Below are positions 10,082-46,611 of a stretch of 49,450 nt of DNA, in pieces (positions within the stretch are counted from its first letter, which is position 1; the number at the start of each line of letters is the position of its first letter). The stretch comes from a virus (taxonomy: Duplodnaviria > Caudoviricetes). The stretch spans positions 1 to 49,450 of IMG/VR virus record IMGVR_UViG_3300012933_000174. The stretch is one strand, 5' to 3'. The translations under genes were made by a program, and so were the position numbers. The notes below the pieces were generated by a model, which had not been told where the DNA came from, ran no database searches, and saw nothing but the letters and a program-made list of their open reading frames with translations.

Positions 10082-11578
10082 TTAAGAGAACATATTCCTT
10101 GCTGCGCCACACTCAGCGATGTCGAATTCTTCAATTACACAATGATGTGCATTCTTGACGTCATCACCCAACCAGATTCTTTCCAGAAAGTGATTCAAGT
10201 TGTCGCGGCTGTGAGTAATTACCCAAGCTTCTGAAATACATTCAAGCAGTCTATCCACATCAGTGATATGGCAACCATACGAATCATGAATACCAAGTAA
10301 CTCACCCTCGAACAAGTTCGTAGTTACACGGAAATGGTTCGCATCACAACTATGGATGAAGTTCGGAGACGCTGCCCCCATCATTTTCCCGTAGTCGTAA
10401 TAAATCGGAGTGTTTGTTTTGATCGCAATCTGACCAGCACGCACCAATGATTCTTCTTCGTTCTTTTCAAGCATTCGACAGAAGAAACCATCCTGTGAAA
10501 ACCATGTCAATGCCACGTCTTCATCAGTTAAATCTTTTTGCCAAATGCCACCATTCTGGTCTATCCAGCAATCAGACAGCATGATTAAGTTCGCTTTAAA
10601 CACACCTTTATCAGTTGGTATGTTAGCTGTGTATTTCACATCACCAGCGTCAGTTCCAGTTGCTGTAACTTTAATCCATTTTTGACGTTTAACGCCATCA
10701 GGACGATATCCAGTATACGCATTCAGTCGTAATCCACGATGTCTGCGACCTTGCTCATCACGAGGACCGAATTGTTCAGTCAGTCTTTTGTCCATCGCTT
10801 CTTTCACGATCATCGTTAAGTCTAAACATGCTGGAAATTCTTCCTGCACGCCTTCCATATACGCTTCACGTATCAATCTTGGACTGCCTTCAACGTGGTT
10901 CTTTTCCAGAACTTCGCTGATTCTGTTATCAATTGTGCTTTCAGTCGCACCGTACGCTAAAATCATTAATGGGGTTTTTGCCATGTCTCTACCCATGTTT
11001 CGGATAGCTTCAATAGCCTGTCTACCAGCGGGAGTGCTATTCCCCTTATTGTCCAAGGGTTCACACTGTAAAGCAGCTTTTGCGAGGATACCATACGGAT
11101 CATTTGGTCTTTCACCGTCTGGAATTGGTAATATGTTACTCGCGACTGCGGTCACTCTGTTCTTTAAACATGCTGCCATGTGTTGTAAGCCGTTAGATTT
11201 CCCATCCAGGTGGAATACGAAATCCGATTCCAGTCCCTCAGCACTGCCATCGTGGTCAGCAAGGTATTTTTGTATTCTTTTTATCTCCTGAACTACGGCA
11301 TACGCAGGCCATTCATCCGCACGACGTTGTAAACCTTCAGGTAAAGATGCAATCAACGCATTTACTGAGCGTATCGCATCCATCATTTCTTTCTGTGTAA
11401 AACCAGCCGCTTCATCCAGATACAGTACATCCTTCCATTCTGGAGATTTAATCAGGTTCTGTGCCCATTTTGCTTGTTCTTCACGGGTGTACTCTTTTCC
11501 ATCGCCAGCATCGATGAATCCTAATTCTCTTGCTAAAGCAACGTTCAACCAGAAGAAAGCGCGTTTTAAAGTTTTCAT
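10082..11578 (-). CDS. T7-family RNA polymerase, C-terminal catalytic subunit of a split enzyme
   Basis: Motif A LDGKSNGLQH, motif B RDMAKTPLMILAYG, PNFIHSCDA, motif C IHDSYG; begins at the ..FFWL.. helix; own AGGA RBS. Confidence 0.93.
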   Translation of the reverse strand: MKTLKRAFFWLNVALARELGFIDAGDGKEYTREEQAKWAQNLIKSPEWKDVLYLDEAAGFTQKEMMDAIRSVNALIASLPEGLQRRADEWPAYAVVQEIKRIQKYLADHDGSAEGLESDFVFHLDGKSNGLQHMAACLKNRVTAVASNILPIPDGERPNDPYGILAKAALQCEPLDNKGNSTPAGRQAIEAIRNMGRDMAKTPLMILAYGATESTIDNRISEVLEKNHVEGSPRLIREAYMEGVQEEFPACLDLTMIVKEAMDKRLTEQFGPRDEQGRRHRGLRLNAYTGYRPDGVKRQKWIKVTATGTDAGDVKYTANIPTDKGVFKANLIMLSDCWIDQNGGIWQKDLTDEDVALTWFSQDGFFCRMLEKNEEESLVRAGQIAIKTNTPIYYDYGKMMGAASPNFIHSCDANHFRVTTNLFEGELLGIHDSYGCHITDVDRLLECISEAWVITHSRDNLNHFLERIWLGDDVKNAHHCVIEEFDIAECGAARNMFS

Positions 11579-11579
11579 T

Positions 11580-11669
11580 TCAAATTCCTAATAAATAGTT
11601 TATAATTTCAAGTGTTAGAAGTGCACTCAGCGATATTAAACACATGAGTGCACGGAAACCTACCGACAT
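11580..11669 (-). CDS. Possible 29-aa hydrophobic peptide (MSVGFRALMCLISLSALLTLEIINYLLGI)
   Basis: ATG directly after the upstream TAA; stop 1 nt before the RNAP subunit ATG; no clear RBS. Confidence 0.3.
   Translation of the reverse strand: MSVGFRALMCLISLSALLTLEIINYLLGI
11621..11653. other. Inverted repeat GTGCACTCA-N15-TGAGTGCAC between the split RNAP genes
   Basis: Perfect 9-bp stem. Confidence 0.6.
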
Positions 11670-11759
11670 TTATTCTTTTTGTTCGAATAAAGTCGCCAGA
11701 TCGTAGAACGCTTTTGCAATTACTGCAACCAATGCGTTAACTAAGGCGTATTCAATCAT
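11670..11759 (-). CDS. 29-aa peptide (MIEYALVNALVAVIAKAFYDLATLFEQKE)
   Basis: Translated by hand; AGGAG RBS overlapping the upstream stop codon. Confidence 0.6.
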   Translation of the reverse strand: MIEYALVNALVAVIAKAFYDLATLFEQKE

Positions 11760-11767
11760 ACAATCTC

Positions 11768-12988
11768 CTATCCAGCTAAGGACGTTTTGTTAGCAAATTT
11801 AAGCATAGACTTCGCGAAGCCTGTACCCTGCGTGTTTAACATTCCAGACAGATAATAAACTCTGCCTCTGTGGTCAGTGCTTAGTGCTTGCCACAGTGGA
11901 ACTTCTGTTTCGGTTACTGCTCCTGCTTTGTACATTAAACATTGAGATGTGTACTTCTCCATCTTTTTCTTTGCTAATGCGCGACTCAGTCCACTTGTAT
12001 CTGGTTTAAAGTGCGCCGCGTTCTGATGCCTCACACGACTGAACAATCTTCCAGATTTTGTAAAACTTACTGGCACTGCCTGCAATTTATTAATAGCTGA
12101 CAATACTTCTTCTGACCAGTTCCCCAAGCGTTTCCCACTGTCATCATACTTCTGACCAGTATCGAACCGATCATCAATCATGCCGAACTGTGGTTTATAC
12201 ACTGGTGCGTCAACTGAACATAAATTCCGATTGTAGTCAGGATGAACCCCAGACTTTGCTGATGTCCAAGGATCTAATGGAAACGGACACAGAGGCAGTC
12301 TCAACGTTACCTTATCACGCAGATACAGTATCTCTTGTTGAATCCAATTCTCGGTTTCATCAGTCAGATTCCAGACTTTACTCTTTCTCAGAGTGCCTTG
12401 TTCATCACGATACTCGCGGATTTCACTACGTTTTTTAACCAGCGGGAATTTCTCCTCGCCAACTTCCCACGCATCAACGTTCCCCAGCCATTCCACCTGA
12501 GGTGCTATAGGAAATGCAATCAAATGCCCAATCGCTGCTTTCACAACGCCGAACATCCATTCTTCTGAATACTCAATCTTTTGAGCATCAGTGTAAACCT
12601 TTAAGGCTTCATCAGCCTCTTCGATGCTACCATACACCATACATCCGAATTCCTCCTCGGTGCAGTAGTCAGCATCTTTCTCCTGTGGCATGTGCTTTTT
12701 CAGCATATTCGCCATCAGTAAGTCGTTTGTGTACCCTGTACTCAAGATCTGAGTCAGGAGTATTGCCCACGCGCAGTGTGATTTAGTTTCTTCTTTCACA
12801 CGCTTTACGCCGCGTTTATCAAGGTATTCAACCAGTACAGTTCCTTCTACTATTTCTGGCATACTCTTCAGTATTTTTCCTATGACAACGTTCGCTGCGG
12901 TCAAGCGAGTAACTAAACCCTGCTCATGTGTTTTAATGTTATCAAGTAGTGTTTTCATATCAGCCTCTGATTTCTCTATATAGATCAC
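11768..12988 (-). CDS. T7-family RNA polymerase, N-terminal subunit of a split enzyme
   Basis: P..PW, AINKLQ.VP, and at the very C-terminus DHRGRVY...LNTQG..FAKSMLKFA (DxxGR motif). Confidence 0.88.
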   Translation of the reverse strand: MIYIEKSEADMKTLLDNIKTHEQGLVTRLTAANVVIGKILKSMPEIVEGTVLVEYLDKRGVKRVKEETKSHCAWAILLTQILSTGYTNDLLMANMLKKHMPQEKDADYCTEEEFGCMVYGSIEEADEALKVYTDAQKIEYSEEWMFGVVKAAIGHLIAFPIAPQVEWLGNVDAWEVGEEKFPLVKKRSEIREYRDEQGTLRKSKVWNLTDETENWIQQEILYLRDKVTLRLPLCPFPLDPWTSAKSGVHPDYNRNLCSVDAPVYKPQFGMIDDRFDTGQKYDDSGKRLGNWSEEVLSAINKLQAVPVSFTKSGRLFSRVRHQNAAHFKPDTSGLSRALAKKKMEKYTSQCLMYKAGAVTETEVPLWQALSTDHRGRVYYLSGMLNTQGTGFAKSMLKFANKTSLAG

Positions 12989-19658: not shown

Positions 19659-21536
19659 TTATCTCCTCTTTCCTCTGTTTCTAAAGCAAGCCCGTCTGTT
19701 CTTGATGTTCCCGCCACTCTTTTTATCATTTCCTAATAATTGATTAACCGTTGCCATGAATTCCGCACGTCTTTGTGCTTCTTCCTTTTCTTCCTCATCA
19801 ACGTTCATTCTGTTCTTCCAGTACCTTACTGCACTTGTTAATGCGTCTAGTCTATCGTCATGGATTAAACAATCTTTCATGTACGTCACTCTAGCCATTT
19901 GATGCAATAGTTGAAAACTTTCTTTTTGATAGTCTGGATATCTCGCAGTGCTCTTAACATCATAATCTAACACTTCAGGAGAGATTACTAGTTTATGCCT
20001 TGCCATAACTGGTTGCAAGTTATCAATCATTCTTTTCTGTTTATTCGCAGTTTCCCAATGGTTCTCAATTATAGGATATCCTGGTAATTCAGCATCTTTA
20101 AATGCTTTTCTAAGAACTGGTAATAGCATTACTCCGAATGCACCATGATCCATGTTCTCTTCAATTTGTATTTTGTAAATTCTGTACTTAACACATAACT
20201 CCGCTATTTCATTAAACACTCTCTGTCCATGACCACCTTCCGTCGCAAGCATTTCTGGTATATGGATGTAACCATTCAATAGGAAACTAACAACGGCTAC
20301 TGTTTCATCCGCGCTTCCGTCAGTTCCACCACCACCCGCAGGGTCAATAGCCATAACTTTATCTTCCCACTTAACAAACAATTCAGATATATTAAATGGA
20401 TAGAATAAGTCATGTTTCTTTTGTGACATATCAAGTATAACTTTCTTGTTCTGATCTGGTAACCACACTATGTTTGCAGGTCCTTTATCAGGCGCTACAT
20501 CAAGTACAATTAAGTTCCTAACTTTCAACGGATACAGATTTCTATCACTTAATGTTGTATCAAGCATAACCTGTAAGTTAAAATACGCTGGACCTTTATC
20601 CAACTCGTCAGCAGTTAGTTGTTCCTCGTTCTTTCTATCACTCGTTGGTTTTCCTCGATCACCATTAACACCACCGCCTCTTCTCAACGTTGGGTCATCA
20701 AGTACTTTCTTCTTAATGTACGGAGCAAGTCTATCTCCATAATATTCTTCTTCTTCGCGCGTAGGGTAACGACCTGGCCAGATTCTAACAGTAAATCCAC
20801 GTTCTTCAAGTCCATTATACAGTGAATCCACAGACTGTGGAGTTCCTAGATACAAAATATCTCCAGTGTTACAGATACTTGAAAAGTCTTTCGATAAATG
20901 AATTAACTGTTGTCTTTGTTTCTGGGTCAGGCCGTTCTTAGCGCTTTCAATATCGTCAGGAATCAGCAAGCCAGCGCGGCGACCCGCTAAGTTACTTGTG
21001 ATCCCAATACTCCGCACGGATGGACTCTTATCAGGTCCTTTAAGCATCCAATGAATATCGAACGCAGTTGCAGAGGTTCTGTCACCATGCTGCCTATCAG
21101 GCCGCAAACATTCCAAAATGTCCCAGTTGTCAATTACCAGCTTCACCCAAGTTGCGATCTCGTCAGCAACGTCAGCACCAGCAGATATAATTAATACAAT
21201 TAATTTCGGATCATGTATAATTCTCCAAACGGCATACGCGCCAGCAATCATACTCTTAGCCTGAGCTCGTTGGGCTTGTACCATTTTGTATCTAATCTTT
21301 TCTTGCATAAAGTTCGCGATGTCTTGTTGCAATTCATCTGTATCGAACCCTTTCACATCTTTAAAACAATCAATCATAAACGTCTTGAACAGTGGGTAAT
21401 GCTCTTGTAATGCTTTCAAGTCGTCCCATCTTTGGACGTATTCTTGATCCGCCTTTGACAGTCTTAAGTATTCACCTCGGCCTTCTAGGATTTCTTGGAA
21501 TTCCTCTTCTGTCCAATCATCCTCAATTACTGACAT
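19659..21536 (-). CDS. terL: Terminase large subunit (T7 gp19-like)
   Basis: QAQRAQAKS Walker A, LLIPDDIE Walker B, LGTPQ, IDPAGGG, HDDRLDAL. Confidence 0.95.
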   Translation of the reverse strand: MSVIEDDWTEEEFQEILEGRGEYLRLSKADQEYVQRWDDLKALQEHYPLFKTFMIDCFKDVKGFDTDELQQDIANFMQEKIRYKMVQAQRAQAKSMIAGAYAVWRIIHDPKLIVLIISAGADVADEIATWVKLVIDNWDILECLRPDRQHGDRTSATAFDIHWMLKGPDKSPSVRSIGITSNLAGRRAGLLIPDDIESAKNGLTQKQRQQLIHLSKDFSSICNTGDILYLGTPQSVDSLYNGLEERGFTVRIWPGRYPTREEEEYYGDRLAPYIKKKVLDDPTLRRGGGVNGDRGKPTSDRKNEEQLTADELDKGPAYFNLQVMLDTTLSDRNLYPLKVRNLIVLDVAPDKGPANIVWLPDQNKKVILDMSQKKHDLFYPFNISELFVKWEDKVMAIDPAGGGGTDGSADETVAVVSFLLNGYIHIPEMLATEGGHGQRVFNEIAELCVKYRIYKIQIEENMDHGAFGVMLLPVLRKAFKDAELPGYPIIENHWETANKQKRMIDNLQPVMARHKLVISPEVLDYDVKSTARYPDYQKESFQLLHQMARVTYMKDCLIHDDRLDALTSAVRYWKNRMNVDEEEKEEAQRRAEFMATVNQLLGNDKKSGGNIKNRRACFRNRGKRR

Positions 21537-22048
21537 ACAGAACCTGTTTCGATCATTCGTGCAATTGTCGAAAGAATTCCTTCTATATCAAATGCGATAA
21601 AGTGATCTTTATTGAGTTCTCTTCGTATTGTTCTGTCTAATTCTATTGCTTCATTTTCTGAGTGAACTCTACCATTTCCGTTGTATTCTATTTCCGAATT
21701 TCTACACAAAATAAAATTTATTGATTCTTGCTTATTGTGTAATTCTCTAGCTAATCTTCTAATTGATTCTTCCTTCGCATACACTGCACCTAATAATACA
21801 GGCGAGTCCGTAATTACAAAGTCCACTTGTCCGTTAAGTCTTTGTATGCGTCTGTTCTGTTTCGCTAATACATACAATGAATCTTCTAGTTTTTCCGTAT
21901 GACCTTCCCAGACTAAGTCCTTCGCGTACTCCTGTACTAATTCACACTCAACGTGCTGTTTCTTTAGTGCGTGAAATACTCCCGCAGCCATTGTGCTTTT
22001 ACCTATTCCTGGACCTCCAAAGAGGTTCACTACAACTGTATGCTTCAT
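21527..22048 (-). CDS. P-loop kinase/ATPase (AAA_28/NadR-like)
   Basis: NLFGGPGIGKST, EYAK...W, ITDSP..L, GR...E.EA..LD. Confidence 0.8.
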   Translation of the reverse strand: MKHTVVVNLFGGPGIGKSTMAAGVFHALKKQHVECELVQEYAKDLVWEGHTEKLEDSLYVLAKQNRRIQRLNGQVDFVITDSPVLLGAVYAKEESIRRLARELHNKQESINFILCRNSEIEYNGNGRVHSENEAIELDRTIRRELNKDHFIAFDIEGILSTIARMIETGSVCQ

Positions 22049-25318: not shown

Positions 25319-25328
25319 TCTACCTCCA

Positions 25329-31928: not shown

Positions 31929-31937
31929 TAACCCTCC

Positions 31938-35162: not shown

Positions 35163-35800
35163 TCCCCGCCTCCCTTCAATGTATCCGTTGCTGTACTATT
35201 TAAGTAGAATGGTTCACCTGCTGGTGTACTTTCTTCACTTGGTCCTTTCCAAGCATCCCATGAGTTCACTACTCTATTCATAAATTCTTTGCTTCCAATA
35301 ATTGGAGCCATCTTAGCCGCTGTATCTAGCCAGATGTTTTTCATGCGTTTCTTTCTTACTTGAGGGATTCCTAACTGATTGTAACTTAATTGATAGGCTC
35401 TATCTTTATACTCCATTTTCTGAGCATGATATTCATCATTACTCGCGCCGATGGCAAGCCCCATATTGACTTTTGTTTGTTGGATTGATGAGTTCACTGA
35501 CCCACCTTGTACACCACCTACTGCTGCACTTATTTTAGCGCTCGCTTCAGCGTCATCTTGGTTCATTCTAATTCTGTTCTGACTTAACATCTTTCTACGT
35601 CCCAACTCAGTTAATCCGAGTTCATTCGCATTCACTTGACTCATTACTGATTTATGCGCAGCTAGTTTTTCACTCCACGCATCATACGTTTCATTCCAAG
35701 TTTGTCTGGTACTTGTCTTATCGAATAACGATGTTAAACCACTTAATGTTGTACCTACAAGGCTTTGGTAGAAGCCTCCGTAATTGTTTTCTTCTGACAC
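35159..35800 (-). CDS. Internal virion protein (gp14-like)
   Basis: A...SAA.GGV.G.SV motif; GTG start with AGGAGG RBS. Confidence 0.75.
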   Translation of the reverse strand: MSEENNYGGFYQSLVGTTLSGLTSLFDKTSTRQTWNETYDAWSEKLAAHKSVMSQVNANELGLTELGRRKMLSQNRIRMNQDDAEASAKISAAVGGVQGGSVNSSIQQTKVNMGLAIGASNDEYHAQKMEYKDRAYQLSYNQLGIPQVRKKRMKNIWLDTAAKMAPIIGSKEFMNRVVNSWDAWKGPSEESTPAGEPFYLNSTATDTLKGGGE

Positions 35801-35808
35801 TTCTCCTC

Positions 35809-38800
35809 CTATCGTAAGTCTTTTGCAACTTGGTGGTATTGACCTTCCCAAGATAATTCATTCACCGTTAACTGTAAGTGGCTGTTTGTCCAGAATACCA
35901 TATTCGCATTATGCATGTCATCTTTGAAATAGTACGCCCAGTTCCCAGTGTAATTCGGTGTATGTCTGTAATCCATACTGTTTAATGATGTACTTCTATG
36001 AGTTTGAATCCTTTCCGTGATACCTAATCCTGATTTCGTCATTTTCGCTTCATACGAATTCGATACTGTTAAATACACATTCGTGATTCTGACCTTACCT
36101 CTAATTAAGCTTTCATTCGTATCACCAATATCTTTTCTGTAAATAATTGATGGTTCATATGAACTTGTGTAACTTACGCCTAGATAAACCTTAAGAGTTC
36201 CACTCGTCCCGATAATACTTGCCATTTCCAGTGTACTTATTTCAATTATAATTTCCGTGCTCGTTGTTGATACTGACACAATATTCAATTTCTCGAATTC
36301 TTTGATACAGTTTTCACCTGATATACACGTCCATAAAGGAACATCCAATACTTTGTAATTATCTATTGGAAATGCTAGTGTTGTACTTGACTTTTTATAC
36401 CCAACTACCATGTCATCTAAATGGACACGTTCTTTACCTGCTAGTTGGTTTTTAAATAAACTCAGTTTTTTGACCACAACTGGAGTGTCACCTAAATCTA
36501 GACCTATAGCATCTTGCGGAATATATAATGGATACGTAAATGGTGCTGTTTCAACTATATAGTTTCCTTGTCCACCCGCTAGAGCTGTACCATCAAGATA
36601 CATAAATTCGTCTATCATTGGACGATTTTCGAATGTAGGTAAGTCATTCCCTGTGTGACCAATGTCAAATATTGCTTCTCTTGGTGTTTGAAATGCCCAC
36701 CAGTCTAAGTGTACGTTCGGTCTGGTATACTTTAATACCCCATCAAAATAAACATATACTGTATTTCCCAATCTTTCTATGCTAATTCGGCATGGTACGT
36801 TTGGTACTACCGTTGCTGAGAATTCTGGTTCATAATTGAATAGTATCCATGAAGTGTTACTGTGGTTGACCAGTTCAATGCCCCCTAAACTTACCACCCC
36901 TGTATACATATCTATGTTTTGTGTTGTTGGGGTGTATATAAACCTTACTGTCCAATCATTCCCCATCATTAAGTGGTCCGTAGGGTTTGCCTGTAGGTAT
37001 ACCGCAGTTGCGTGATGTCCCGATCCTTGATCAGCGATAAATTGACCACTTCCAAAGACTCCTGGTGTTGATATTTGACTTTCATACCCAGTTTGTGTTA
37101 TGTTATACATTCCTCCTGGTACTGCGTTCGCAGGTGGGAAAGTATCGAAGTGTAAAATTAAGTTCGGATAATATACTAAATCCGGTGGTTGTTCAATAAC
37201 AGCGCCATGGCTATTACTTACTACCACATGTAAGTCATACTGACTCATGTACATATTAATTATGTTATTACTTGGAGAGAGTATCCATTTAGACCAGCTA
37301 TTCCAAGCTGCTCCTTTCCAGTTAAACCTGTCCGCAACGTAAAATACATTCCCAGTATCTCCATCTGTTTTACACGCTAAGAAATGTAGGTTCGGATTCG
37401 CTGCCATTAGTGTACATTCTCCTTTAAGATATCCCATTACGCCAGATGTTAATTCACCCGATACGTCTTGTCCAGTGTATGGTTGTGCCGTGTATTCGAA
37501 CACTCCCGTGCTGTCACCATAATTAATGGCAAAATACACGAAGTTCCCCGCACTTACTGGTTTAATTTTCCATTGCGTGTCGTATTTTGTTGTTAACGCC
37601 ATACTGACTGTCTCAGGAGTAATCGGTTGATTTCCTGGTATTTTAAATTGCGCATTCCGAGATGTTATTAACATGTCTTTATTGTGCGTTGTAATATGTC
37701 TTATTTCATCTATGCCAGTCGCTGACGAGCTTATGTCTACTGGATCTGTAACCATCAGTTTAATTGCTGAGGCTTTAAAGAAGTTCCATATATCGTCTGT
37801 TTCTGACATTACTACATTATTTCCAGATAAGAATACTAATCGTTTTTGAAAGTATCCAATACTAGTTACTTGATGCCCTACAAAGGAAGGATTCGGACAT
37901 GTTAATTCGTCACCTTTAATCCTTTCTCTCCAAGCTACATCTTCAATCCATGAGTACTTAATTAATGGTTCGATCAATACCGAATGAGGCATCGTTTCTC
38001 TATTTAATCTGTTCTTTAACCAAGGGTCTACTGTTTCCTGCCAGATAACTTCTGTCATTGTACCATCAGCTACTGGATTCACCTGTGCCGCTTTCATGAA
38101 ATACACTCCATTACCTTTTCCCTTTGTAGCTTTTTGTGGGTCTGGATTTATTTCTACAATGCTTCCCGCTATTGCGTACTTTGGCATGTTTTCAATGTTA
38201 TTCGTTACTGGATGTATAATTATAATCCCTTTTTCACCTTGACCACTTGTAATTAATACTTGCACTGTATCTCTGGTTGTTGCACCTAATGCATACACGT
38301 CTATGTTCGTACCTAATTGAACCGCTTTAAATGTCCCCCCAGATAATACTTCAAAGGCGACTGGACCTTGTGCATACATTGTTTGTGCCGCTTGGAATGC
38401 GTTCTGTATTGTAATCAGTTGCTCCATGGTGATTTCACCACGTCCTTGACTAATTACCATGTTGCCCCAAACTATTATATTCGTAACAAGTGTTAATAAA
38501 TCTGTGTTTATAATGCTATTAAAGTCCGCCCATAACGCATTATACTCCGCTGTTGGTGCTGCTGCATCATACGCCGCTTGTGCTATTACTGTTGCCGCTA
38601 TTGCTGCATCCAGTTCAACTAATGCTGCATCTCTAATTGCAATCAGTGTACTGTTTCCAGGATTTAAAGCAAGGTCTGCTACTGCTTTATCGTACGCGCC
38701 TTGTTTAATAGCTTGAGTTGCTTGAGCATCTTGTAATGCCGCTCTAGCGCTTGCCACGCCACCACCATACAATAATGCCATCGCATCTAACACTGCTGTA

Positions 38801-39609
38801 ATGTCCGCTGTTATACTATCCACACTCGCTGTAAAGCCATTCGATGCTGCTATGTAATCAGGCCATCCATTATTCGTCCCAATCAGATTCATATAATTCG
38901 CAATTGATCCTATCCAAGAGAACACAATACTTACTTGTCCTAGGAAACCTCCCCAAGCTGCTCCATTCAATTGTCTTGTTATGTCTTCAGCAATTACGGC
39001 TGTTGATCTTGCTATGTCCGCTGGACCAAAGTCAATACCGTCTGGGTTCATGTAATCTGGATTTTCTACTGTGTGAGTTACTACCTTTGAATACAGGAGT
39101 TCACCTGTTCTTGATAATCTATTCACTTGAAGTGTCAACGTATCACCATAATTCATGGCGGTAGTCACGTTTATGTGGGTTGGTTGGTTGTAATATCCTT
39201 TAATGTACGGATCCATGCTTATTGTGATTTTTGGATTTAAAATAAACACTGTATCATTAATCTGTTCCATGATTAAGTCTGTTACGTTATGAACTGCTGG
39301 ATTGAAATACTCCGTCGGTAAAAATCCAGTATCAGTCATATCATCACCTTTCCAGATGACTACTCTACCGTTCTGTAATACTAAGATGTGGTATTCAATT
39401 TCCGTTCTCATGTAATAGAAGTGTTTTACCGCTAAGTCTGTTCTATACAGAACTCTTTCAGCTTCCAGTCTTGGTCTTCTTGATAATCCATGGTAATGGT
39501 TACTTCTAAAGTTCACTTGTTCTTGCGCTGTACCCGTAGGTCTAGTTATTTGAGCCAATGTACTTACGCCTAAGATAGGGGCTCCAATAACGTCTTGAAT
39601 TCTTGCCAT
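35809..39609 (-). CDS. Tail tubular protein B / nozzle (gp12-like), enlarged
   Basis: GVS..AQ..R......EQ.N......GLSRRP, W.ER..GD....P.PSFVG, FQ.RL.FLSG..V.MS, D.VD, W.KW. Confidence 0.9.
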   Translation of the reverse strand: MARIQDVIGAPILGVSTLAQITRPTGTAQEQVNFRSNHYHGLSRRPRLEAERVLYRTDLAVKHFYYMRTEIEYHILVLQNGRVVIWKGDDMTDTGFLPTEYFNPAVHNVTDLIMEQINDTVFILNPKITISMDPYIKGYYNQPTHINVTTAMNYGDTLTLQVNRLSRTGELLYSKVVTHTVENPDYMNPDGIDFGPADIARSTAVIAEDITRQLNGAAWGGFLGQVSIVFSWIGSIANYMNLIGTNNGWPDYIAASNGFTASVDSITADITAVLDAMALLYGGGVASARAALQDAQATQAIKQGAYDKAVADLALNPGNSTLIAIRDAALVELDAAIAATVIAQAAYDAAAPTAEYNALWADFNSIINTDLLTLVTNIIVWGNMVISQGRGEITMEQLITIQNAFQAAQTMYAQGPVAFEVLSGGTFKAVQLGTNIDVYALGATTRDTVQVLITSGQGEKGIIIIHPVTNNIENMPKYAIAGSIVEINPDPQKATKGKGNGVYFMKAAQVNPVADGTMTEVIWQETVDPWLKNRLNRETMPHSVLIEPLIKYSWIEDVAWRERIKGDELTCPNPSFVGHQVTSIGYFQKRLVFLSGNNVVMSETDDIWNFFKASAIKLMVTDPVDISSSATGIDEIRHITTHNKDMLITSRNAQFKIPGNQPITPETVSMALTTKYDTQWKIKPVSAGNFVYFAINYGDSTGVFEYTAQPYTGQDVSGELTSGVMGYLKGECTLMAANPNLHFLACKTDGDTGNVFYVADRFNWKGAAWNSWSKWILSPSNNIINMYMSQYDLHVVVSNSHGAVIEQPPDLVYYPNLILHFDTFPPANAVPGGMYNITQTGYESQISTPGVFGSGQFIADQGSGHHATAVYLQANPTDHLMMGNDWTVRFIYTPTTQNIDMYTGVVSLGGIELVNHSNTSWILFNYEPEFSATVVPNVPCRISIERLGNTVYVYFDGVLKYTRPNVHLDWWAFQTPREAIFDIGHTGNDLPTFENRPMIDEFMYLDGTALAGGQGNYIVETAPFTYPLYIPQDAIGLDLGDTPVVVKKLSLFKNQLAGKERVHLDDMVVGYKKSSTTLAFPIDNYKVLDVPLWTCISGENCIKEFEKLNIVSVSTTSTEIIIEISTLEMASIIGTSGTLKVYLGVSYTSSYEPSIIYRKDIGDTNESLIRGKVRITNVYLTVSNSYEAKMTKSGLGITERIQTHRSTSLNSMDYRHTPNYTGNWAYYFKDDMHNANMVFWTNSHLQLTVNELSWEGQYHQVAKDLR

Positions 39610-40175
39610 TAGTTTCTTGGTCTCCACCATGGTTTCACTCTGTGCATGACTCTGCCTGGTCTTGGCGAATCCATCTTATTGATTCTTAGCTGTCTAATGT
39701 TCATGCTTGATGCTGCTACGCTTGCTGCTATTAAAATCTTTTCGAGAGTTCTAATAATACTCTCATCGTTTATTTCAGCTCTTACGAATTCGATCGCGGC
39801 TTTTATTTTAATTAGGTGTTGTATTGTTTCTGGAATTTCTATCCAAGGCAAGTCAAAGCTTACGTATTCACATAAAACATCCGCAAAAGCCTTATTCTCA
39901 TGGTTCAAGTTGTCTCTAAAACCAGTTGATCTGTAAATCATGTTCTTATCATACGGTATAACTGATAAAGGCACGTACCCCTCTATTAAGCCATTCACAT
40001 CTAGGTAACATGTTTTTTCTCTGTTAAACCACCAAACATTTCCCAGTGTTTGTTGTCTGGTTGTATCTAGCCATTCCTTTGCTGATTCCGCCTGTGGGTG
40101 TAAACTGTTTATGCTATCTACTGAATCCGCACCAACTGTTTTCAGAAGGTAATTCAGTGCTTCTAGTTCTTGCAA
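39609..40175 (-). CDS. Tail tubular protein A (gp11-like)
   Basis: ELEA.N..L..VG...V.S, WWFN.E, L.W.E.P motifs. Confidence 0.9.
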   Translation of the reverse strand: MQELEALNYLLKTVGADSVDSINSLHPQAESAKEWLDTTRQQTLGNVWWFNREKTCYLDVNGLIEGYVPLSVIPYDKNMIYRSTGFRDNLNHENKAFADVLCEYVSFDLPWIEIPETIQHLIKIKAAIEFVRAEINDESIIRTLEKILIAASVAASSMNIRQLRINKMDSPRPGRVMHRVKPWWRPRN

Positions 40176-40198
40176 AATTCCTCCTACCTTATTGTGAA

Positions 40199-40222
40199 AT
40201 GAAGGGCATTTCTGCCCCTCAT
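40199..40222 (-). terminator. Terminator-like hairpin after the capsid gene (T-phi position)
   Basis: ATGAGGGGCA-GAAA-TGCCCTTCAT followed by TTC. Confidence 0.75.
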
Positions 40223-40234
40223 ATTACCTTTTAC

Positions 40235-41389
40235 TTACGACTGTGCGTCGATAGCTGCAATCAATGTCGCTTTCGTGTAATCACGGTTACGGAATACACC
40301 ACCAGCGCAATGGATTTTATCAGGACCCAAGCCAAACGCTCTAATATCGTCAAGATACCAGGTTTTGTCCATTTCATTCCAGTACAGACTTGATCTGTGT
40401 GAAATTAAGTCCAGACCTTGTACCGCAGCACGATCGAACCATACCATACAGCATAACGCATCATCCAGTGTAGTGTCATACAAATTACCGTTCACAGCAT
40501 TACTTAACAAATGCGTTTCACCGATGTCTTCAGGTTTAGGTAAACGATTTGTGACTTCAACAGTCAGGCCATTCACTCTCAACACACGACCTTTATCAGT
40601 AGTCGTTGCATTCTGTTCGAACGTAGTTGCCGCGAAGCGATCGTTCGTCATTAACGCGTAATACTGAATTGGACTCATCAACAAGATACCAGTTTCTGGT
40701 TTCAAGTTCTGCAATCGCAAACGTTTACACAACAACAGAATTGCTGCTTCAATCTTTTGCCAATCAACTTCATCACCAACGGCATCGAACTCAACCACAG
40801 TACCACCTTTAAAACCAGTCGGGCAGTTACGTTCATGTTTAGTCCAACCTGCTCTCCAGGTACCAGTGGCTCTATCCCACCAGCCGCCATTGTAGTTATA
40901 CGTACCGATTGGTTTACCAGTATCGTCCACGTCAGGCATTTTGGCTGTAAATTGAGCCGCTTTGATTGCCATTAACGGAATCAATGGTTCAGCGAACTCG
41001 GTTAATTCAACCGCATGTTCTTCTGAAATTTCAGCTTTATGATCGTAGTCCATTAAGAACGTATCAATCATTGCAATCGGAGTACGTGAGATTACACCAG
41101 TATCAACTGTGAATTTCACTTCTTCGAAGATTGGTGTGTTAGTTCCAGGAATTTCGGAACGACCCATTTTCTGGATTTTTGCACCAGACATTTGCTTTTT
41201 GACTAGCGTACCCGAGGCTACTTGACGCCATTGTACACGTTGTTGGAAGTTCGATAACTCGACAATCCGTCGTTGCATACCACTGTCATATTCCTCTACG
41301 AAGTTCGGATTGACAAGTCCTGAATCGAGACCCCCTTTCCAACCTGCACGTAATACACCATCATTTAAGGTTTGACCCACTAAACTCAT
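40235..41389 (-). CDS. Major capsid protein (T7 gp10-like)
   Basis: F.EEY...., ..VD....R.......F..DYD...E...E....L, P.QY..L, V..TNRLP; position after scaffold. Confidence 0.92.
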   Translation of the reverse strand: MSLVGQTLNDGVLRAGWKGGLDSGLVNPNFVEEYDSGMQRRIVELSNFQQRVQWRQVASGTLVKKQMSGAKIQKMGRSEIPGTNTPIFEEVKFTVDTGVISRTPIAMIDTFLMDYDHKAEISEEHAVELTEFAEPLIPLMAIKAAQFTAKMPDVDDTGKPIGTYNYNGGWWDRATGTWRAGWTKHERNCPTGFKGGTVVEFDAVGDEVDWQKIEAAILLLCKRLRLQNLKPETGILLMSPIQYYALMTNDRFAATTFEQNATTTDKGRVLRVNGLTVEVTNRLPKPEDIGETHLLSNAVNGNLYDTTLDDALCCMVWFDRAAVQGLDLISHRSSLYWNEMDKTWYLDDIRAFGLGPDKIHCAGGVFRNRDYTKATLIAAIDAQS

Positions 41390-41426
41390 ACTTTACTCTC
41401 CTTTTCTATTGTTTAAATTATACCGA

Positions 41427-42041
41427 CTAATTCCCTTCTTGGGCGCGGCTTCTGGTACGGCGGGCTTCCAACGCTTTGAAGCGTTTATCAGAGCGAGGCA
41501 CACGTTCTTTTTCCAGTTTTTGTACTTCGTCTAGGTATTTCCATCGATCAATGTAATCATCGGTGAATTTAGGTGCTGCGCCGTCACCATTAACTAAGTC
41601 CAGAGGGTACGTTTGTGGATTTTCTTTCATGTATAAGTCGGCAAGCTCTTTTAAAGCTGCTTTTTGAGCACGACCACCTTGTACTGACATGCGTTGTAGT
41701 TCTTGGAAGTCTTCTGGAGACATATTCGCTTTACCCCACGCCCGCATATCTTCGAATGCAGCTTTTACGTCTTTAACGGATGTACCTCTAAAGATTTCTT
41801 TTAAATACTCTTCCTGCGCGCCACGGCGTTTTTCGTCTTCTTTCTTTGCCTGCTCACGTTTAATTTTTTGACCTTCCAGATACAGTGTTGTAATTGCAGG
41901 TCCGTGCGTGTTCATTAACAACGCCACTTGACCATCAGTCAATTGACCTTCATTTGCTGAAACTGCCAGAATATTAATACCTGCTAGTGTTAGCAGTTCT
42001 TCTTCTGTTTTTGGTTTTTCTACTGGGATTGGATCCGCCAT
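41427..42041 (-). CDS. Capsid assembly scaffolding protein
   Basis: W...NMS..D..E motif, Arg-rich C-terminus; between portal and capsid. Confidence 0.8.
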   Translation of the reverse strand: MADPIPVEKPKTEEELLTLAGINILAVSANEGQLTDGQVALLMNTHGPAITTLYLEGQKIKREQAKKEDEKRRGAQEEYLKEIFRGTSVKDVKAAFEDMRAWGKANMSPEDFQELQRMSVQGGRAQKAALKELADLYMKENPQTYPLDLVNGDGAAPKFTDDYIDRWKYLDEVQKLEKERVPRSDKRFKALEARRTRSRAQEGN

Positions 42042-42052
42042 CTCTTTTTCTC

Positions 42053-43600
42053 CTATTGTTTCGGTTCTGTGTTTTGAGCTGCTGCTTTATTCTGTTCAAG
42101 AGCTGCCTGATGTTCTTGTTCTTGAGACATTGCTTGTTGCTGGTCTCGTGTATACTCTTCTAACGTTTTCAATACTGTAGTATAGTCTAAACCATACCCA
42201 GCTGCCAACACCTTAATTAATTCATCATATTTTATCCATGCTGCTGCTTGTGGTGGAATAGCTGCTGCATTTGCTAAGTCTGTTAATAATCTTTTCCAGT
42301 TCTCCAAATCAGAGAATCTTGATAAAGCTTCTAAACCAGTTAATATAGTAATATGAATCCGTTTATAACTTGGATTTAACGCGTTCAGTAATCGTTTAGC
42401 TAAAGGATATTGTAACAAGAAGCTCAAGTTCGTATAAACACCACCTAAGGTGCTTTCTAATTCAGCTGCTTGCATTCTAATCTCTTCTGCTGTTACTCTC
42501 TCCGCGTCTCTTGTTACTGCTGAAGTTAACAAGAAGCTAGCCCCAAGTTTTCTTTCCAGTCTCTCTTGCTGAGCTACTAAACTGTCAATTTGTAGTTTAA
42601 CATCTGCTGAGAAACATGTAATATCATCTGGTTCACCAGGTACGTAATCGCCACTTTCCGCACTTTCTAAGTCCGTAATACTTGTGCTACAAGATGGTTT
42701 AACTAAAAATATTATGTTCGCTAAGACAGTTACTAGTTCAGCTATACTTTCCGCCACGTTACTCAATTGGCTAAAATCACCAGCTAGTGCTTCAACGTGT
42801 CCACGTCCATAATTGTCTCTGCCAAAGCGTTGCCAGAAAACACTGATGTATGGTAAGTCGTCTTTGTTATACACGCCGTCTTTTTCAGTTAATTTCCCGA
42901 TCTCTTCCATACTCTGATATACTTTGTATCTGTCTGTATTTCCGATTCTCTCCACGTGAGTGTAAATGACTAGTGGGACTGTGTCGTCTTCTTTACATTC
43001 ATGTCCTTTATCTTTCAATTTCTTTTTTATTGCATCTGGAAAGTTTCGTGGTAATTTCTTTTCTTTAATAATCAGTATGTTTAAGCTTCCATCGTAACTC
43101 AATTCACGAACGTATTCGTTTATGTTATACACTATCAACCCATTATCAGTGAATTTTAACACGCAATCGCCTACAGCAATTAACAATTGAAGAACTTCAA
43201 TCATTTTACCACGCATGTTACCACTATTAAATCTTTCCATTACTTCAGTTTCAATTTTACTTAATACTGTGTCAATGTCTGCTTTGTTCATTGTACCTAG
43301 GGCTTTCATCTCCTCTGGTGGTACTTTTAACTTCAAAAACGGTTTACTTGGATGAAATAATACTAATCCAATCTTATTCGCTAAGTTTATTAAACCTCTT
43401 GCGCCTGTACTTTGAAAGTCGTGTTGAATCTCTCTTTCCACGTAATTAACATCTTTTCTAGGCATAATACCAGGAATAGTCCAGGCTGTGTATTGCATCG
43501 CTCTAATCGCGAACATGTCTCTCTCACCTGATAATTCAAAGTATCTGTTTACAAAATGTGGCGTCTGACTGTTTAAGTCATTCTTTTCTACATTCATCAT
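42053..43600 (-). CDS. Portal (head-tail connector, gp8-like)
   Basis: WTIP, QSTGARG..NLANK, YGRG.VE...GD, RDAERVTAEEIR..A.ELE..LGGVY. Confidence 0.97.
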   Translation of the reverse strand: MMNVEKNDLNSQTPHFVNRYFELSGERDMFAIRAMQYTAWTIPGIMPRKDVNYVEREIQHDFQSTGARGLINLANKIGLVLFHPSKPFLKLKVPPEEMKALGTMNKADIDTVLSKIETEVMERFNSGNMRGKMIEVLQLLIAVGDCVLKFTDNGLIVYNINEYVRELSYDGSLNILIIKEKKLPRNFPDAIKKKLKDKGHECKEDDTVPLVIYTHVERIGNTDRYKVYQSMEEIGKLTEKDGVYNKDDLPYISVFWQRFGRDNYGRGHVEALAGDFSQLSNVAESIAELVTVLANIIFLVKPSCSTSITDLESAESGDYVPGEPDDITCFSADVKLQIDSLVAQQERLERKLGASFLLTSAVTRDAERVTAEEIRMQAAELESTLGGVYTNLSFLLQYPLAKRLLNALNPSYKRIHITILTGLEALSRFSDLENWKRLLTDLANAAAIPPQAAAWIKYDELIKVLAAGYGLDYTTVLKTLEEYTRDQQQAMSQEQEHQAALEQNKAAAQNTEPKQ

Positions 43601-43680
43601 TTTCCATACCACCTATCTGTTGCGAATAACCACAAAATAATAGCTAAGACTGCTAGTCCGTCCCAAATCCATTCCATCAT
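43597..43680 (-). CDS. 27-aa membrane peptide (MMEWIWDGLAVLAIILWLFATDRWYGK)
   Basis: Translated by hand; ATGA overlaps with both neighbours. Confidence 0.55.
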   Translation of the reverse strand: MMEWIWDGLAVLAIILWLFATDRWYGK

Positions 43681-43949: not shown

Positions 43950-44365
43950 ACGCCAACCTCTATTCCTAAGATATATTCTTCTTCTTCGCCTGGTTGTACT
44001 TCTAAAGGAACGTTATGCAGAGTCATCCAGATAGTTTCTGATTGTGTAATACCAATCCGTACTTCTCCTTCTTGATCCCAGCCCATGTTGAATCCAGATA
44101 ATTTCAGCCCTTTTTCGTCGTTCGATTTCCGAGTAATCATTTCACCAGATAACATCATGTACGCATTCTTTTCACGGCGAGGTTTTCCAATAATTAGAAA
44201 CCCGGCTGGTATTTTAATTCTGCGAGTATAAGTTTTATTCACACGTGTTTCTGTTAAGAACACTGTTTCCGTCTGTTCTTCAAGAGCTTCTTCCATACAC
44301 TCTATCATAAGTTTAAAGTCTTCTTTTGTTCCGTTTAATAACACATCTTCAAGATAATGTCCCAT
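43946..44365 (-). CDS. Cupin-like protein
   Basis: Y.R.I.IPAG..I.GK ... ET.W.T.H pattern; usual His ligands replaced. Confidence 0.6.
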   Translation of the reverse strand: MGHYLEDVLLNGTKEDFKLMIECMEEALEEQTETVFLTETRVNKTYTRRIKIPAGFLIIGKPRREKNAYMMLSGEMITRKSNDEKGLKLSGFNMGWDQEGEVRIGITQSETIWMTLHNVPLEVQPGEEEEYILGIEVGV

Positions 44366-44373
44366 ATTCTCCC

Positions 44374-46611
44374 CTATTCAAAGAAGTTCTCTTCGTTTAT
44401 ATCATCTAGGTTCAATACCCCTAGAGCCTCTTCATCCATGTTCTTATACATATCCACAAATGTATCTCTAATTGTTTTCTGCAATTTACTTACGTAGTTA
44501 CAGTGACATGCGAAGTCATCATGTATTCCTCTGATGTCTTTTGGACCCGCATTTATGATCCTAACGGCATGGCTTGCGTCCATACTGTGGATGTAATTCG
44601 CTGGATAAGACTGTTTCTGTTTCCTGTTATTAACTTCTTCAGTGTCTGAACGAAGCTTCATACGTCTAGCTTTCTTAATCGTTAAATGAATAACAATCTT
44701 TTTCTGCTTAACGTACGGCTGATAAACTTTAAATCCTGTTGGTGTTACCCAAGTCATGAAGCTCTCCGTCCTGTTCTTAAGTATCTCCATACCTTTGATT
44801 ACAGCAACAAGTTCTTCCTCGAATACACCCCATATAATATCACTTAAGTACAGACATTCTGAACCTCTATATCCAAGTCCTTTCTCAAGCATTCCCATAC
44901 TGAGTTTCCTGGATAAACTGTTCTTAGTTATACCAAACGATAATAACATTACTGGTTTTTTCATGAAGTCTCTATCAATCCCTTGTTTTAACCAGAATCT
45001 CGCAATCTCTGAACTGTCTTCCGCTAATTTCTTTTTAACTATTTCAGCAACCTTTGAGTAAATATCACTCTTCGTTTTTCCTATCATACCTAGGTTTCTT
45101 GCGGTAATCTCATCTCTGAACATCGCCGCGTAATGTTGAAGTCCATTACAGACTCCATCAATACCTACTGGTAAGTTACTTGTTTCTAAATCTTCTAAAC
45201 ATGCTCTGAGGAAGCAGAACGGCTTCTTCGCTAATGTCCATCTGTAATCGGCTGGATTCTCCTTAATACTTTGAATCATGCTCAGGTTTCCAACATACCA
45301 TCGTATTAATTCTTTTCTAGTACCTTTCACTCCAAAGCATTTCGCTGTATGAACTCGTATCCAGTCCGCACCTTCCTTCGTAACTTTTACGGATGTCGCA
45401 AAATCTAGTAGACTCTTCTCAACATCTGTACCTTGTGTACTAAGATATATACTATTACAGTACATTCTTCCCACGAAGTCACAGTTATATACGAAATGAA
45501 TTCCATCCCAGTCCAATAGATCAGTTACCGTGCGAAGTGTTCTTCCAAGGCTTTTCATTCTAAAGTTAGCTTTAATTCGTTTTGTGTATACCTTTGATCT
45601 CTCAAGCTTCCAAGCTCTATACTCTTTCTCTTCTGTTTCTTCCATTTTATTCGGATCTTGGTTAAAGTGTTTCGGATATTCTTTTAATACTCCCAGATTA
45701 TACTTTTCAAGTTGTTCAATACCTTTACTGTTCACAGCATCTTTTATTCTTTTCAGCATTTCAGTGTTTATCTTCCACTTAACTCTACCTTGTTTATCTA
45801 AGGCATCCCTAACTTCTTGACTTACACCACCATGCTTTTTGTGTCCTGGACCTCTCCACTTCACAATGTTCACTTTTAATTTCTCTGTGTACCAACCGCC
45901 CCTGTTTCCTGTCCAAGGTTCAGGCGCTATTTTTAATGGTCCTCTGGATATGTTGAATAAACTTGCTTCATTCAGAAACTCTTCCTTCCATACTTTATAT
46001 TCTTCCGTAAACTTTAATACTGATCTTATCCTCACACCTTCGTTCACATCTTCCAATACAATAACATCATCGTACTCTTCCAATATTTCCGATAATACCA
46101 ACGTGCCTATATGCGCTGTGGTTTTTTTACTCCATTGTTCCCATTCCATGTTCTCCATTTTAGCTGTCAGCACTCTCTTTGCGTGATCATACTTCTTGCT
46201 ACCACGTTTCCGTAAGTCATCTTTTACTAAGTCGAATACCTTTTTGTTCTCAAGTTCAAACAACATGAATCTGTAATTGTCTTCAATCTCTTGACCAATC
46301 CGTAAAACAACCTCTTGTATAGTAGGAAATTGTGCTGTCATGCTCTCAAATACTATACTTAACCCTATGTAAGCAATTGTATTCCAGTCTTTATCTGGTA
46401 CACAATCATACAGAATCTTGTTATACCTTCCTACTGTACCCGCCCAATTCTTGCTTATCATTTCCAAGTTCTTCCCCACGTCCACCATCCTTTCACGGAT
46501 TAACGCGTTCACTGGAAGAACTTGTGACGTATCAAGTCTTATCCATTCAGCTCTATGTTTCGCCAAACAGCTTCTTTCATATTCGATTTGCTTTCTTTCA
46601 CCATCATTCAT
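44374..46611 (-). CDS. Single-subunit T7-family RNA polymerase (phiKMV-like position)
   Basis: DFVGRMY, DGVCNGLQH, RDFMKKPVMLLSFG, W.TPTGF, NYIHSMDASH, IHDDF. Confidence 0.95.
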   Translation of the reverse strand: MNDGERKQIEYERSCLAKHRAEWIRLDTSQVLPVNALIRERMVDVGKNLEMISKNWAGTVGRYNKILYDCVPDKDWNTIAYIGLSIVFESMTAQFPTIQEVVLRIGQEIEDNYRFMLFELENKKVFDLVKDDLRKRGSKKYDHAKRVLTAKMENMEWEQWSKKTTAHIGTLVLSEILEEYDDVIVLEDVNEGVRIRSVLKFTEEYKVWKEEFLNEASLFNISRGPLKIAPEPWTGNRGGWYTEKLKVNIVKWRGPGHKKHGGVSQEVRDALDKQGRVKWKINTEMLKRIKDAVNSKGIEQLEKYNLGVLKEYPKHFNQDPNKMEETEEKEYRAWKLERSKVYTKRIKANFRMKSLGRTLRTVTDLLDWDGIHFVYNCDFVGRMYCNSIYLSTQGTDVEKSLLDFATSVKVTKEGADWIRVHTAKCFGVKGTRKELIRWYVGNLSMIQSIKENPADYRWTLAKKPFCFLRACLEDLETSNLPVGIDGVCNGLQHYAAMFRDEITARNLGMIGKTKSDIYSKVAEIVKKKLAEDSSEIARFWLKQGIDRDFMKKPVMLLSFGITKNSLSRKLSMGMLEKGLGYRGSECLYLSDIIWGVFEEELVAVIKGMEILKNRTESFMTWVTPTGFKVYQPYVKQKKIVIHLTIKKARRMKLRSDTEEVNNRKQKQSYPANYIHSMDASHAVRIINAGPKDIRGIHDDFACHCNYVSKLQKTIRDTFVDMYKNMDEEALGVLNLDDINEENFFE

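What the first reader, a model, noticed from the sequence alone, without database searches (positions are those of the whole stretch)
10082..46611. Dual RNA polymerase system: a split N4-RNAPII-like enzyme plus a single-chain T7-type enzyme in one T7-like genome
Seen: two complete sets of T7-family catalytic motifs. One set is divided between two early genes (12988-11768 and 11578-10082). The other is a compact 745-aa chain (46611-44374) at the phiKMV-type position just before the structural genes. Known: Autographiviridae normally encode one single-chain RNAP, and heterodimeric T7-family RNAPs are the hallmark of N4-like phages, which are larger and also carry a giant virion RNAP. No virion RNAP is recognisable here, and the portal, capsid, tail and terminase are T7-type. 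Inference: a transcription cascade of host RNAP, then split RNAP for middle/replication genes, then single-chain RNAP for late genes. I do not recognise this hybrid architecture.
Basis: partly seen in the sequence, partly recalled or inferred. Interest (0 to 1): 0.92.

Follow-up and report, generated by a model that had tools for sequence, protein, structure and literature searches.

The report
Phage RNA polymerase split at N4 seam
This uncultured T7-like phage has two RNA polymerases, a layout already published for its relatives, but its early enzyme is encoded as two genes cut where coliphage N4 cuts its two-part enzyme, likely by a separate event, so split and one-piece sister enzymes could be compared directly.

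Summary
Observation confirmed: a complete 49.5-kb T7-like phage genome holds two sets of T7-family motifs, one on a 745-aa chain before the portal and one divided over two genes (396 + 498 aa). Two RNAPs are not new: gene order and both enzymes match Foturvirus/Tawavirus phages (26 GenBank records), in print in 2017 and 2025; this scan also noted that pair on other DNA. The new part is the split. It falls within about one residue of the N4 gp15/gp16 seam, has a ribosome-binding site and a 189-nt stop-filled, hairpin-rich spacer, and recurs in the same register in relatives at about 50% identity, so it is not an assembly error. The halves are predicted to bind. Trees place the enzyme with one-piece 'early' polymerases, not inside N4 RNAPII (AU p 0.02). 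The closest complete relative keeps it unsplit, so an independent split is most likely. No virion RNAP or N4 gp1/gp2 homologue was found. The host-early-late relay is plausible but untested; no phage promoters were found. The late enzyme naturally has Phe at T7 Tyr639. Verdict: new variant of a known kind.

The parts
11768..12958 (-). Early RNAP, N-terminal subunit (396 aa): N-terminal domain, short thumb, DxxGR motif; ends at the equivalent of T7 residue ~453, like N4 gp15
10082..11578 (-). Early RNAP, C-terminal catalytic subunit (498 aa): motifs A, B, C; ~80-aa insertion in the fingers shared with P0004/P0005; AGGA 7 nt before its ATG
11579..11767 (-). 189-nt spacer between the subunit genes: stops in frame, two stem-loops (about 11705-11660 and 11656-11615), folding z about -3
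11670..11759 (-). 29-codon hydrophobic ORF in the spacer, with AGGAGA upstream; expression untested
11580..11669 (-). Second 29-codon hydrophobic ORF in the spacer, start directly after the first ORF's stop (TAAATG); expression untested
10030..10075 (-). Stem-loop just after the catalytic-subunit gene (-15.9 kcal/mol); possible processing site or terminator (inferred)
44374..46611 (-). Late single-chain T7-type RNAP (745 aa), after endonuclease VII and before the portal; natural Phe (TTT at 44937) at the T7 Tyr639 position
1695..6340 (-). Primase, DnaB helicase and PolA DNA polymerase downstream of the split RNAP: likely targets of the early enzyme (inferred from order)
19659..43612 (-). T7-type virion and packaging block (portal, scaffold, capsid, tail tube, nozzle, internal virion proteins, terminase) downstream of the late RNAP; no virion RNAP recognised

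Best explanation
This phage belongs to the Foturvirus/Tawavirus-like lineage with two T7-family RNA polymerases, and its early enzyme is encoded as two genes cut at the N4 gp15/gp16 seam, likely through a split that arose independently of N4, with the two proteins predicted to form one enzyme. Shown: both ORFs, their motifs, the split point, its recurrence in relatives and the tree position. Inferred: host RNA polymerase transcribes the left end, including both subunit genes. Each subunit is translated from its own ribosome-binding site. The heterodimer, perhaps with an unidentified helper as N4 RNAPII needs, transcribes the replication block down to the late RNAP gene. The late single-chain enzyme then transcribes the virion, lysis and packaging genes. 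Odds: real two-gene enzyme about 0.85; independent split rather than shared with N4 about 0.65; the relay as described about 0.55.
For: Split point: N4 RNAP1 (6DT7_A) aligns to the end of the N piece (query 286-392 to chain 161-266 of 269; E 0.29 alone). In the alignment the N piece ends at T7 ~453 and the C piece begins within about one residue of gp16's start. Recurrence: P0039/P0036 (49-50% identical) end in the same register, and P0005/P0037/P0038 (51-52%) start with Met in the same register. P0036 and P0037 both come from a 20,439-bp JGI contig (same length; one contig inferred). Two more distant proteins, P0066 (382 aa) and P0069 (412 aa), also end at this seam. Lineage: both halves best match the early RNAP of Alteromonas phages R8W and H4/4; 26 listed GenBank records hold that enzyme plus a second RNAP, and five annotated genomes show the same order. 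4 of 4 complete IMG/VR relatives have two RNAPs without internal stops. Tree of catalytic halves: window + P0004 + P0005 (96/97) join single-chain P0006 (100/99), next to the other early enzymes (94/87); N4 RNAPII is apart (100/100); the N-half tree agrees; AU test p 0.0203. P0006 is the 719-aa unsplit early RNAP of complete genome G001, whose DNA polymerase is 54% identical to the window's. Models: C piece pLDDT 87.7, N piece 81.1, both T7-RNAP folds. Complex score 0.87 against best control 0.00; the mark was reached by 116 of 157 solved complexes and 2 of 215 mismatched pairs; runs agree in at least 84% of contacts, partner pLDDT at least 88. Halves of a split gene with a solved look-alike (T7 RNAP, 6DT7) tend to pass, so this shows likeness more than binding.
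Against: No expression or activity data exist. No phage promoter consensus was found upstream of middle or late genes in the window or in R8W and H4/4, and sigma-70-like sites are at chance level (18 found, 22.6 expected). The closest relative by tree, P0004, is continuous across the seam, so one origin of the split needs a re-fusion, or the split arose several times (3 changes at least on 25 rows). No relative's DNA across the split could be fetched, so stop codons and spacers in relatives were not seen; P0066 and P0069 lie on contigs of 1,446 and 2,761 bp and may be cut by contig ends. The short thumb is shared with N4 gp15, which leaves a shared origin open. PMC12361551 reads the enzyme before the structural genes, not the early one, as the extra one.
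Confidence: 0.6

Rival explanations
1. The split is old and shared with N4: the early enzymes and N4 RNAPII are one short-thumb lineage whose ancestor was two-part, and the one-piece Foturvirus/Tawavirus enzymes, P0006 and P0004 are later fusions.
For: Seam identical to within about one residue, and both C pieces start alike. Segment T7 330-421 is 57-69 aa in 5 N4 gp15, 63-68 in 4 split N pieces and 43-63 in 30 one-piece early enzymes, against 67-103 (median 97) in 22 canonical ones. In both unrooted trees N4 RNAPII and the early clade lie on one side of the branch to canonical enzymes (86/86; 91). Small ORFs also sit between gp15 and gp16 in 4 of 5 N4-like records viewed (none in N4).
Against: Needs at least three fusions against two splits plus one fusion (one search gives 3 changes as the minimum). 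The support is unstarred, the trees are unrooted, and long branches may attract. Identity to gp16-type proteins is marginal (best E 0.001).
Confidence: 0.2
2. The split enzyme was taken from an N4-like phage.
For: Same seam; a DUF4326 gene near the RNAP as in N4 gp12.
Against: AU test rejects window clade + N4 RNAPII (p 0.0203). Halves are 396 + 498 aa against 269 + 404. tblastn of both halves finds Foturvirus early RNAP first, and no Schitoviridae among the rows listed. No N4 gp1 or gp2 homologue in six frames.
Confidence: 0.04
3. The structured spacer is an intervening element (small intron or ribosome bypass) and the enzyme is made as one chain.
For: The halves abut with no residue missing against joined relatives. 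The spacer folds better than shuffles (z -3.48; z -3.0, with 2 of 109 genome windows at -3 or lower). One of 13 in-frame joins that obey the U/G rule would give the length seen in P0006 (my comparison). The last sense codon is GGA before TAG, as at the T4 gene 60 take-off site (recalled, from no call).
Against: No Rfam match at gathering or E-value level, no P7-like motif, and both GG[AG] triplets in the gap resume out of frame. The C piece has its own AGGA + ATG, and relatives at 52% identity start with Met in the same register. The hairpin is not found beside RNAP genes elsewhere (0 of 7 loci).
Confidence: 0.07
4. The early enzyme is real and two-part, but its main job is not middle transcription: it pulls the genome into the cell or makes primers at a replication origin.
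For: It lies near the inferred left end. Four same-strand DnaA-box-like 9-mers cluster at 15074-15189 upstream of it (5 in the window against 1.42 expected). No middle promoters were found. T7 RNAP does both jobs (established knowledge, recalled).
Against: The box cluster is absent from the related genomes and loci checked (0 of 10). Gene order fits an ordinary cascade.
Confidence: 0.12
5. Assembly chimera or decaying pseudogene.
For: No reads were available to check; the N piece has the lowest codon-usage fit of 13 genes (0.022 against 0.05-0.20).
Against: Both ORFs are intact with all catalytic residues, which are invariant in relatives. The split recurs in other assemblies. GC and skew are even. 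The genome is syntenic with G001 and Foturvirus. Another contig length (36,421 bp) is shared by relatives of both enzymes (P0004, P0049).
Confidence: 0.03

Closest known systems
Alteromonas phages vB_AspP-H4/4 and vB_AmeP-R8W (Foturvirus); Vibrio phages JSF7, phiV141 (Tawavirus) and K437b-type; group AG-14 of PMC12361551
   Same: Two T7-family RNAPs, one early with a short thumb and one before the portal; same order of primase, helicase, PolA, exonuclease, ligase, endonuclease VII, RNAP, portal, capsid, tail, terminase; terminase 47-49%, DNA polymerase 40-44%, late RNAP 30% identical.
   Different: Their early RNAP is one chain of 673-708 aa. Here it is two genes totalling 894 aa with insertions, only 25-32% identical in local stretches, and the late enzyme has Phe at motif B.
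Coliphage N4 RNAPII (gp15 269 aa + gp16 404 aa; PDB 6DT7), Schitoviridae
   Same: Two-gene T7-family RNAP cut just after the DxxGR strand; DxxGR on the first subunit, motifs A, B, C on the second; short thumb; early position.
   Different: Separate clade; subunits here are 127 and 94 aa longer; no virion RNAP, no gp1/gp2 homologue; late genes have their own phage RNAP instead of host RNAP with N4SSB; 49-kb T7-type genome.
T7 RNAP Y639F (engineered; PMC4551944)
   Same: The late enzyme has Phe at the aligned position.
   Different: Natural, in a chain about 22% identical to the early catalytic subunit and far from T7; effect on sugar selection untested.

Membership tests
[quoted passage not shown] | DxxGR, motif A Asp, motif B Arg/Lys/Tyr, motif C His-Asp in the split enzyme | tested here: met
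   Pfam 104.8 bits, cut-off 22
[quoted passage not shown] | Same motifs in the late enzyme | tested here: met
   All present; motif-B Tyr is Phe; Pfam 203.9 bits
[quoted passage not shown] | RNA synthesis from a promoter | not testable with these tools
   no activity or expression data
N4 RNAPII (Schitoviridae) | Two genes cut after the DxxGR strand | tested here: met
N4 RNAPII (Schitoviridae) | Truncated thumb | tested here: met
   63 aa against 57-69 in gp15 and median 97 in canonical enzymes
N4 RNAPII (Schitoviridae) | Descent within the gp15/gp16 clade | tested here: not met
   trees; AU p 0.0203
N4 RNAPII (Schitoviridae) | gp1/gp2 cofactors and a virion RNAP in the genome | tested here: not met
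   phmmer of N4 gp1, gp2 on six frames: nothing below E 2; no third RNAP region. A very divergent cofactor or virion RNAP is not excluded.
N4 RNAPII (Schitoviridae) | Stable heterodimer | tested here: inconclusive
   predicted only: 0.87 against best control 0.00, may reflect likeness to solved structures
Autographivirales, two-RNAP lineage (Foturvirus/Tawavirus-like, AG-14) | T7-type portal, scaffold, capsid, tail tube A/B, terminase, RNAP | tested here: met
Autographivirales, two-RNAP lineage (Foturvirus/Tawavirus-like, AG-14) | Compact early RNAP plus RNAP before the structural block, same gene order | tested here: met
Genus Foturvirus or Tawavirus | Genus-level nucleotide similarity | not tested
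   no whole-genome nucleotide comparison was run; core proteins at 27-49% identity suggest a separate genus
Group I intron | Rfam match and conserved P7 core in the spacer | tested here: not met

The most novel reading that the evidence does not exclude
The early polymerases of two-RNAP T7-like phages and N4 RNAPII are one short-thumb lineage, and this clade, with split and joined sisters at the N4 seam and no virion RNAP, shows how N4's two-part middle enzyme arose. Paired with a late enzyme that carries a natural Y639F change, it would form a fully phage-run three-step programme unlike both T7 and N4.
Probability: 0.2. Interest if true: 0.72.

Novelty: new variant of a known kind. Interest (0 to 1): 0.46.

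Why it matters
A 2015 review (PMC4496689, passages) says the origin and advantage of a heterodimeric over a single-chain T7-type RNAP are unclear, found only 24 heterodimers among more than 500 homologues, and tied them to phages with a virion RNAP. This clade has the same cut without a recognisable virion RNAP. It also has near sisters that are joined (P0004 across the seam at 50%; the complete 719-aa P0006). That gives matched split and unsplit enzymes for asking what the split buys. It also marks a second natural seam for split-polymerase tools. The natural Phe at Tyr639 in the late enzyme may matter for making 2'-modified RNA, if it behaves as in T7.

Tried and rejected
Fetching relatives' DNA across the split: viral contigs with P0002, A3 and P0004, and metagenome contigs with A4 and P0037, found none. 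Sequencing runs: none was listed, so no read check. Promoters: repeat search, 18-mer and 12-mer enumeration and sigma-70 scan gave nothing above chance. Virion RNAP in the 2,199-aa ORF: no motif, no PHROG or Pfam hit, Atlas hits only under 0.9 for residues 777-2199; not folded. Intron or bypass: see rival. Vibrio phage PhPV1.2, whose paper lists three RNAP ORFs (PMC13733069, passages): its record has many inverted and duplicated blocks against phiV141, and its early RNAP is broken by frameshifts and rearrangement, not at this seam. An earlier scan note said two-part RNAPs of marine T7-like phages were in print in 2019; I did not find this in passages of 10.1101/410191 or PMC6918029, so it stays unverified. 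Literature searches for a precedent of this split found none; PMC12361551's main text has no 'split' or 'heterodimer', but its supplements were not read. PMC8228385 (R8W) never mentions RNA polymerase. PMC11705849 concerns an N4-like phage. Tree rows: 42 of 64, 32 of 64, 33 of 63, 25 rows; dropped rows were mostly near-redundant early or late enzymes, and the long-branch D496 was left out.
Full report
Observation. The window is a circularly permuted, apparently complete phage genome with its genes on the minus strand. Three ORFs carry T7-family RNAP sequence: 12958-11768 (396 aa, DxxGR at 362), 11578-10082 (498 aa, motifs A, B, C) and 46611-44374 (745 aa, all motifs). A six-frame profile search finds these two catalytic regions and no third. 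The virion and packaging genes are T7-type.

Two polymerases are known. The best GenBank matches of all three ORFs are Alteromonas phages H4/4 and R8W, and for the late and early enzymes also Vibrio phages JSF7, phiV141 and the K437b group. Their annotations show an early RNAP of 673-708 aa and a second of about 800 aa before the portal, and the window follows their gene order. With the R8W early enzyme as query, 27 records cover at least 80% of it; the 26 top rows each have two matching places. The H4/4 announcement names two DNA-dependent RNA polymerases (PMC5658483, whole text). PMC12361551 (passages) has a section on Autographiviridae with two RNAP genes: 23 genomes in AG-10.1 and 17 in AG-14, function untested. 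Earlier notes of this scan reached the same view on other genomes.

The split is real. The halves lie in one frame, but the 189-nt gap is full of stops. It holds two 29-codon hydrophobic ORFs and ends in AGGA seven bases before the second ATG. No residues are missing at the seam compared with joined relatives. Among 32 proteins found with the C piece, two cover it fully at 50-52%. P0005 and its cluster members P0037 and P0038 start with Met in the same register; P0004 runs through the seam from about 20 residues before DxxGR. Among 17 proteins found with an N-piece profile in 1.84 billion, 4 end at the seam (the window's own, P0036, P0066, P0069), 10 are longer single chains of 605-747 aa and 3 are short fragments. 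P0036 and P0037 share a contig length of 20,439 bp; in that assembly the N piece is itself called as two parts (P0065 + P0036), while a cluster member from another source, P0039, is whole at 401 aa. I could not fetch DNA for any of these, so their stops are inferred from protein ends. None of the cultured two-RNAP phages I viewed is split at this seam; PhPV1.2's pieces come from a rearranged record.

The seam is N4's. N4 gp15 ends, and gp16 begins, within about one residue of the window's pieces, at T7 residue 453/454. PMC4496689 (passages) describes the same division: N-terminus, thumb and DxxGR on gp15, motifs A-C on gp16, with a truncated thumb. The thumb is short here too, and in all 30 one-piece early enzymes measured. 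Small ORFs between the subunit genes occur in 4 of 5 N4-like records where both genes were in view.

The enzyme is not N4's. In the careful tree of catalytic halves (32 of 64 rows) the window groups with P0004 (96/94), P0005 (96/97) and the single-chain P0006 (100/99), beside the Foturvirus/Tawavirus early enzymes (94/87); N4 RNAPII forms its own branch (100/100). The N-half tree (33 of 63 rows, quick method) agrees. Forcing the window clade with N4 RNAPII is rejected (p-AU 0.0203). P0006 is the 719-aa unsplit early RNAP of G001, a complete 44,940-bp genome that is the closest relative with DNA in hand. At least three split/join changes are needed on a 25-row tree: two splits and one re-fusion is the shortest reading, but a two-part ancestor with three fusions costs only one step more, and the trees are unrooted. 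No N4 gp1 or gp2 homologue was found. The 2,199-aa internal virion protein shows no RNAP motif, though it was not folded.

Structure. Both pieces model with confidence (pLDDT 87.7 and 81.1) and match T7 and mitochondrial RNAP; 6DT7_A ranks 25th for the N piece. The predicted complex scores 0.87 against a best control of 0.00; 116 of 157 solved complexes and 2 of 215 mismatched pairs reach the mark; runs agree in at least 84% of contacts, partner pLDDT at least 88. The surest contacts join the N piece's last strand (387-394) to the strand before motif A (116-121). Split halves with solved look-alikes tend to pass, so this adds little beyond likeness.

The spacer. It folds better than shuffles (z -3.48; about -3.0 for the gap alone, with 2 of 109 genome windows as low), through two stem-loops; a third follows the second gene. 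It has no Rfam match, no P7-like motif, no in-frame landing codon and no similar DNA in phage records. The hairpin pattern hit 7 viral loci, none with an RNAP gene. I read the hairpins as likely mRNA processing or stabilising elements that set subunit ratio, by analogy with T7 early RNase III sites (recalled). An intron or bypass remains a small possibility.

The late enzyme. It belongs to a distinct fast-evolving clade of 730-748 aa. It has Phe (TTT) where T7 has Tyr639. So does G001's late enzyme, while 5 of 7 clade members keep Tyr, as do 78 of 79 motif-B matches in 80 fetched loci. In T7, Y639F allows 2'-modified nucleotides (PMC4551944, passages). The catalytic Asp, Lys and Arg are kept, so the enzyme is probably active. 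One base separates TTT from TAT and no reads were listed.

Mechanism. Most likely host RNAP reads the left end; the two subunits assemble; the heterodimer transcribes primase, helicase, DNA polymerase, exonuclease, ligase, endonuclease and the late RNAP gene; and the late enzyme transcribes virion and packaging genes. This rests on gene order and on how T7, phiKMV-type and N4 phages work (established knowledge; PMC4496689 for N4). No promoter evidence was found, so the relay is inferred. The host is unknown; relatives infect marine Alteromonas and Vibrio.

Novelty. The two-RNAP layout is already known. The split at the N4 seam in a T7-like phage without a virion RNAP was not found in my paper searches nor by sequence in this scan's notes. 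The supplements of PMC12361551 were not read and may list such genomes. Natural splits of T7-type RNAPs at other sites appear often in this scan's notes (not checked by me), which lowers the surprise. Verdict: new variant of a known kind, interest 0.46.

Noticed in passing
window 15074-15189, minus strand: Four same-orientation DnaA-box-like 9-mers (TTATC[CA]ACA) within 116 nt upstream of the early genes; 5 in the window against 1.42 expected. No such cluster in 10 related genomes or loci. Possible origin or DnaA decoy.
   Followed up: partly
window 44937-44935: Late RNAP has natural Phe at the T7 Tyr639 position; also in G001's late RNAP, which further has Phe in place of motif-C His.
   Followed up: partly
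window 31928-25329: 2,199-aa internal-virion-position protein with no PHROG or Pfam hit, about five to six near-perfect 25-aa repeats (DNA 29822-30271, 75-nt period) and an HExxH motif; weak Atlas leads to polyvalent-protein domains under 0.9.
   Followed up: partly
L035 16480-19185 (G001): One 901-aa ORF holds five tandem tail-tubular-protein-A-like repeats, with a sixth match just upstream at 16150-16587.
   Followed up: no
L004 11291-14665, minus strand: A 42.8-kb viral contig has an 809-aa RNAP plus a cysteine-free 1,124-aa ORF on the opposite strand with RNAP motifs A and B, like a small virion RNAP.
   Followed up: no
window 39630-35809: Tail nozzle protein is 1,273 aa against about 790 in relatives, with large insertions.
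   Followed up: no
window 9126-8587, 14312-13469, 22048-21527: RNase H downstream of the split RNAP; a phrog_335 phosphatase and a DUF4326 gene upstream; a thymidylate-kinase-like gene between the terminase subunits.
   Followed up: no
window 17200-16830: 382-nt non-coding stretch with a run of 11-12 C and an AT-rich end, after the homologue of the last Foturvirus gene: likely site of the genome termini.
   Followed up: no
L133 (PQ511476.1, Vibrio phage PhPV1.2): Record has many inverted and duplicated blocks against phiV141; its extra RNAP ORFs look like assembly fragments.
   Followed up: yes
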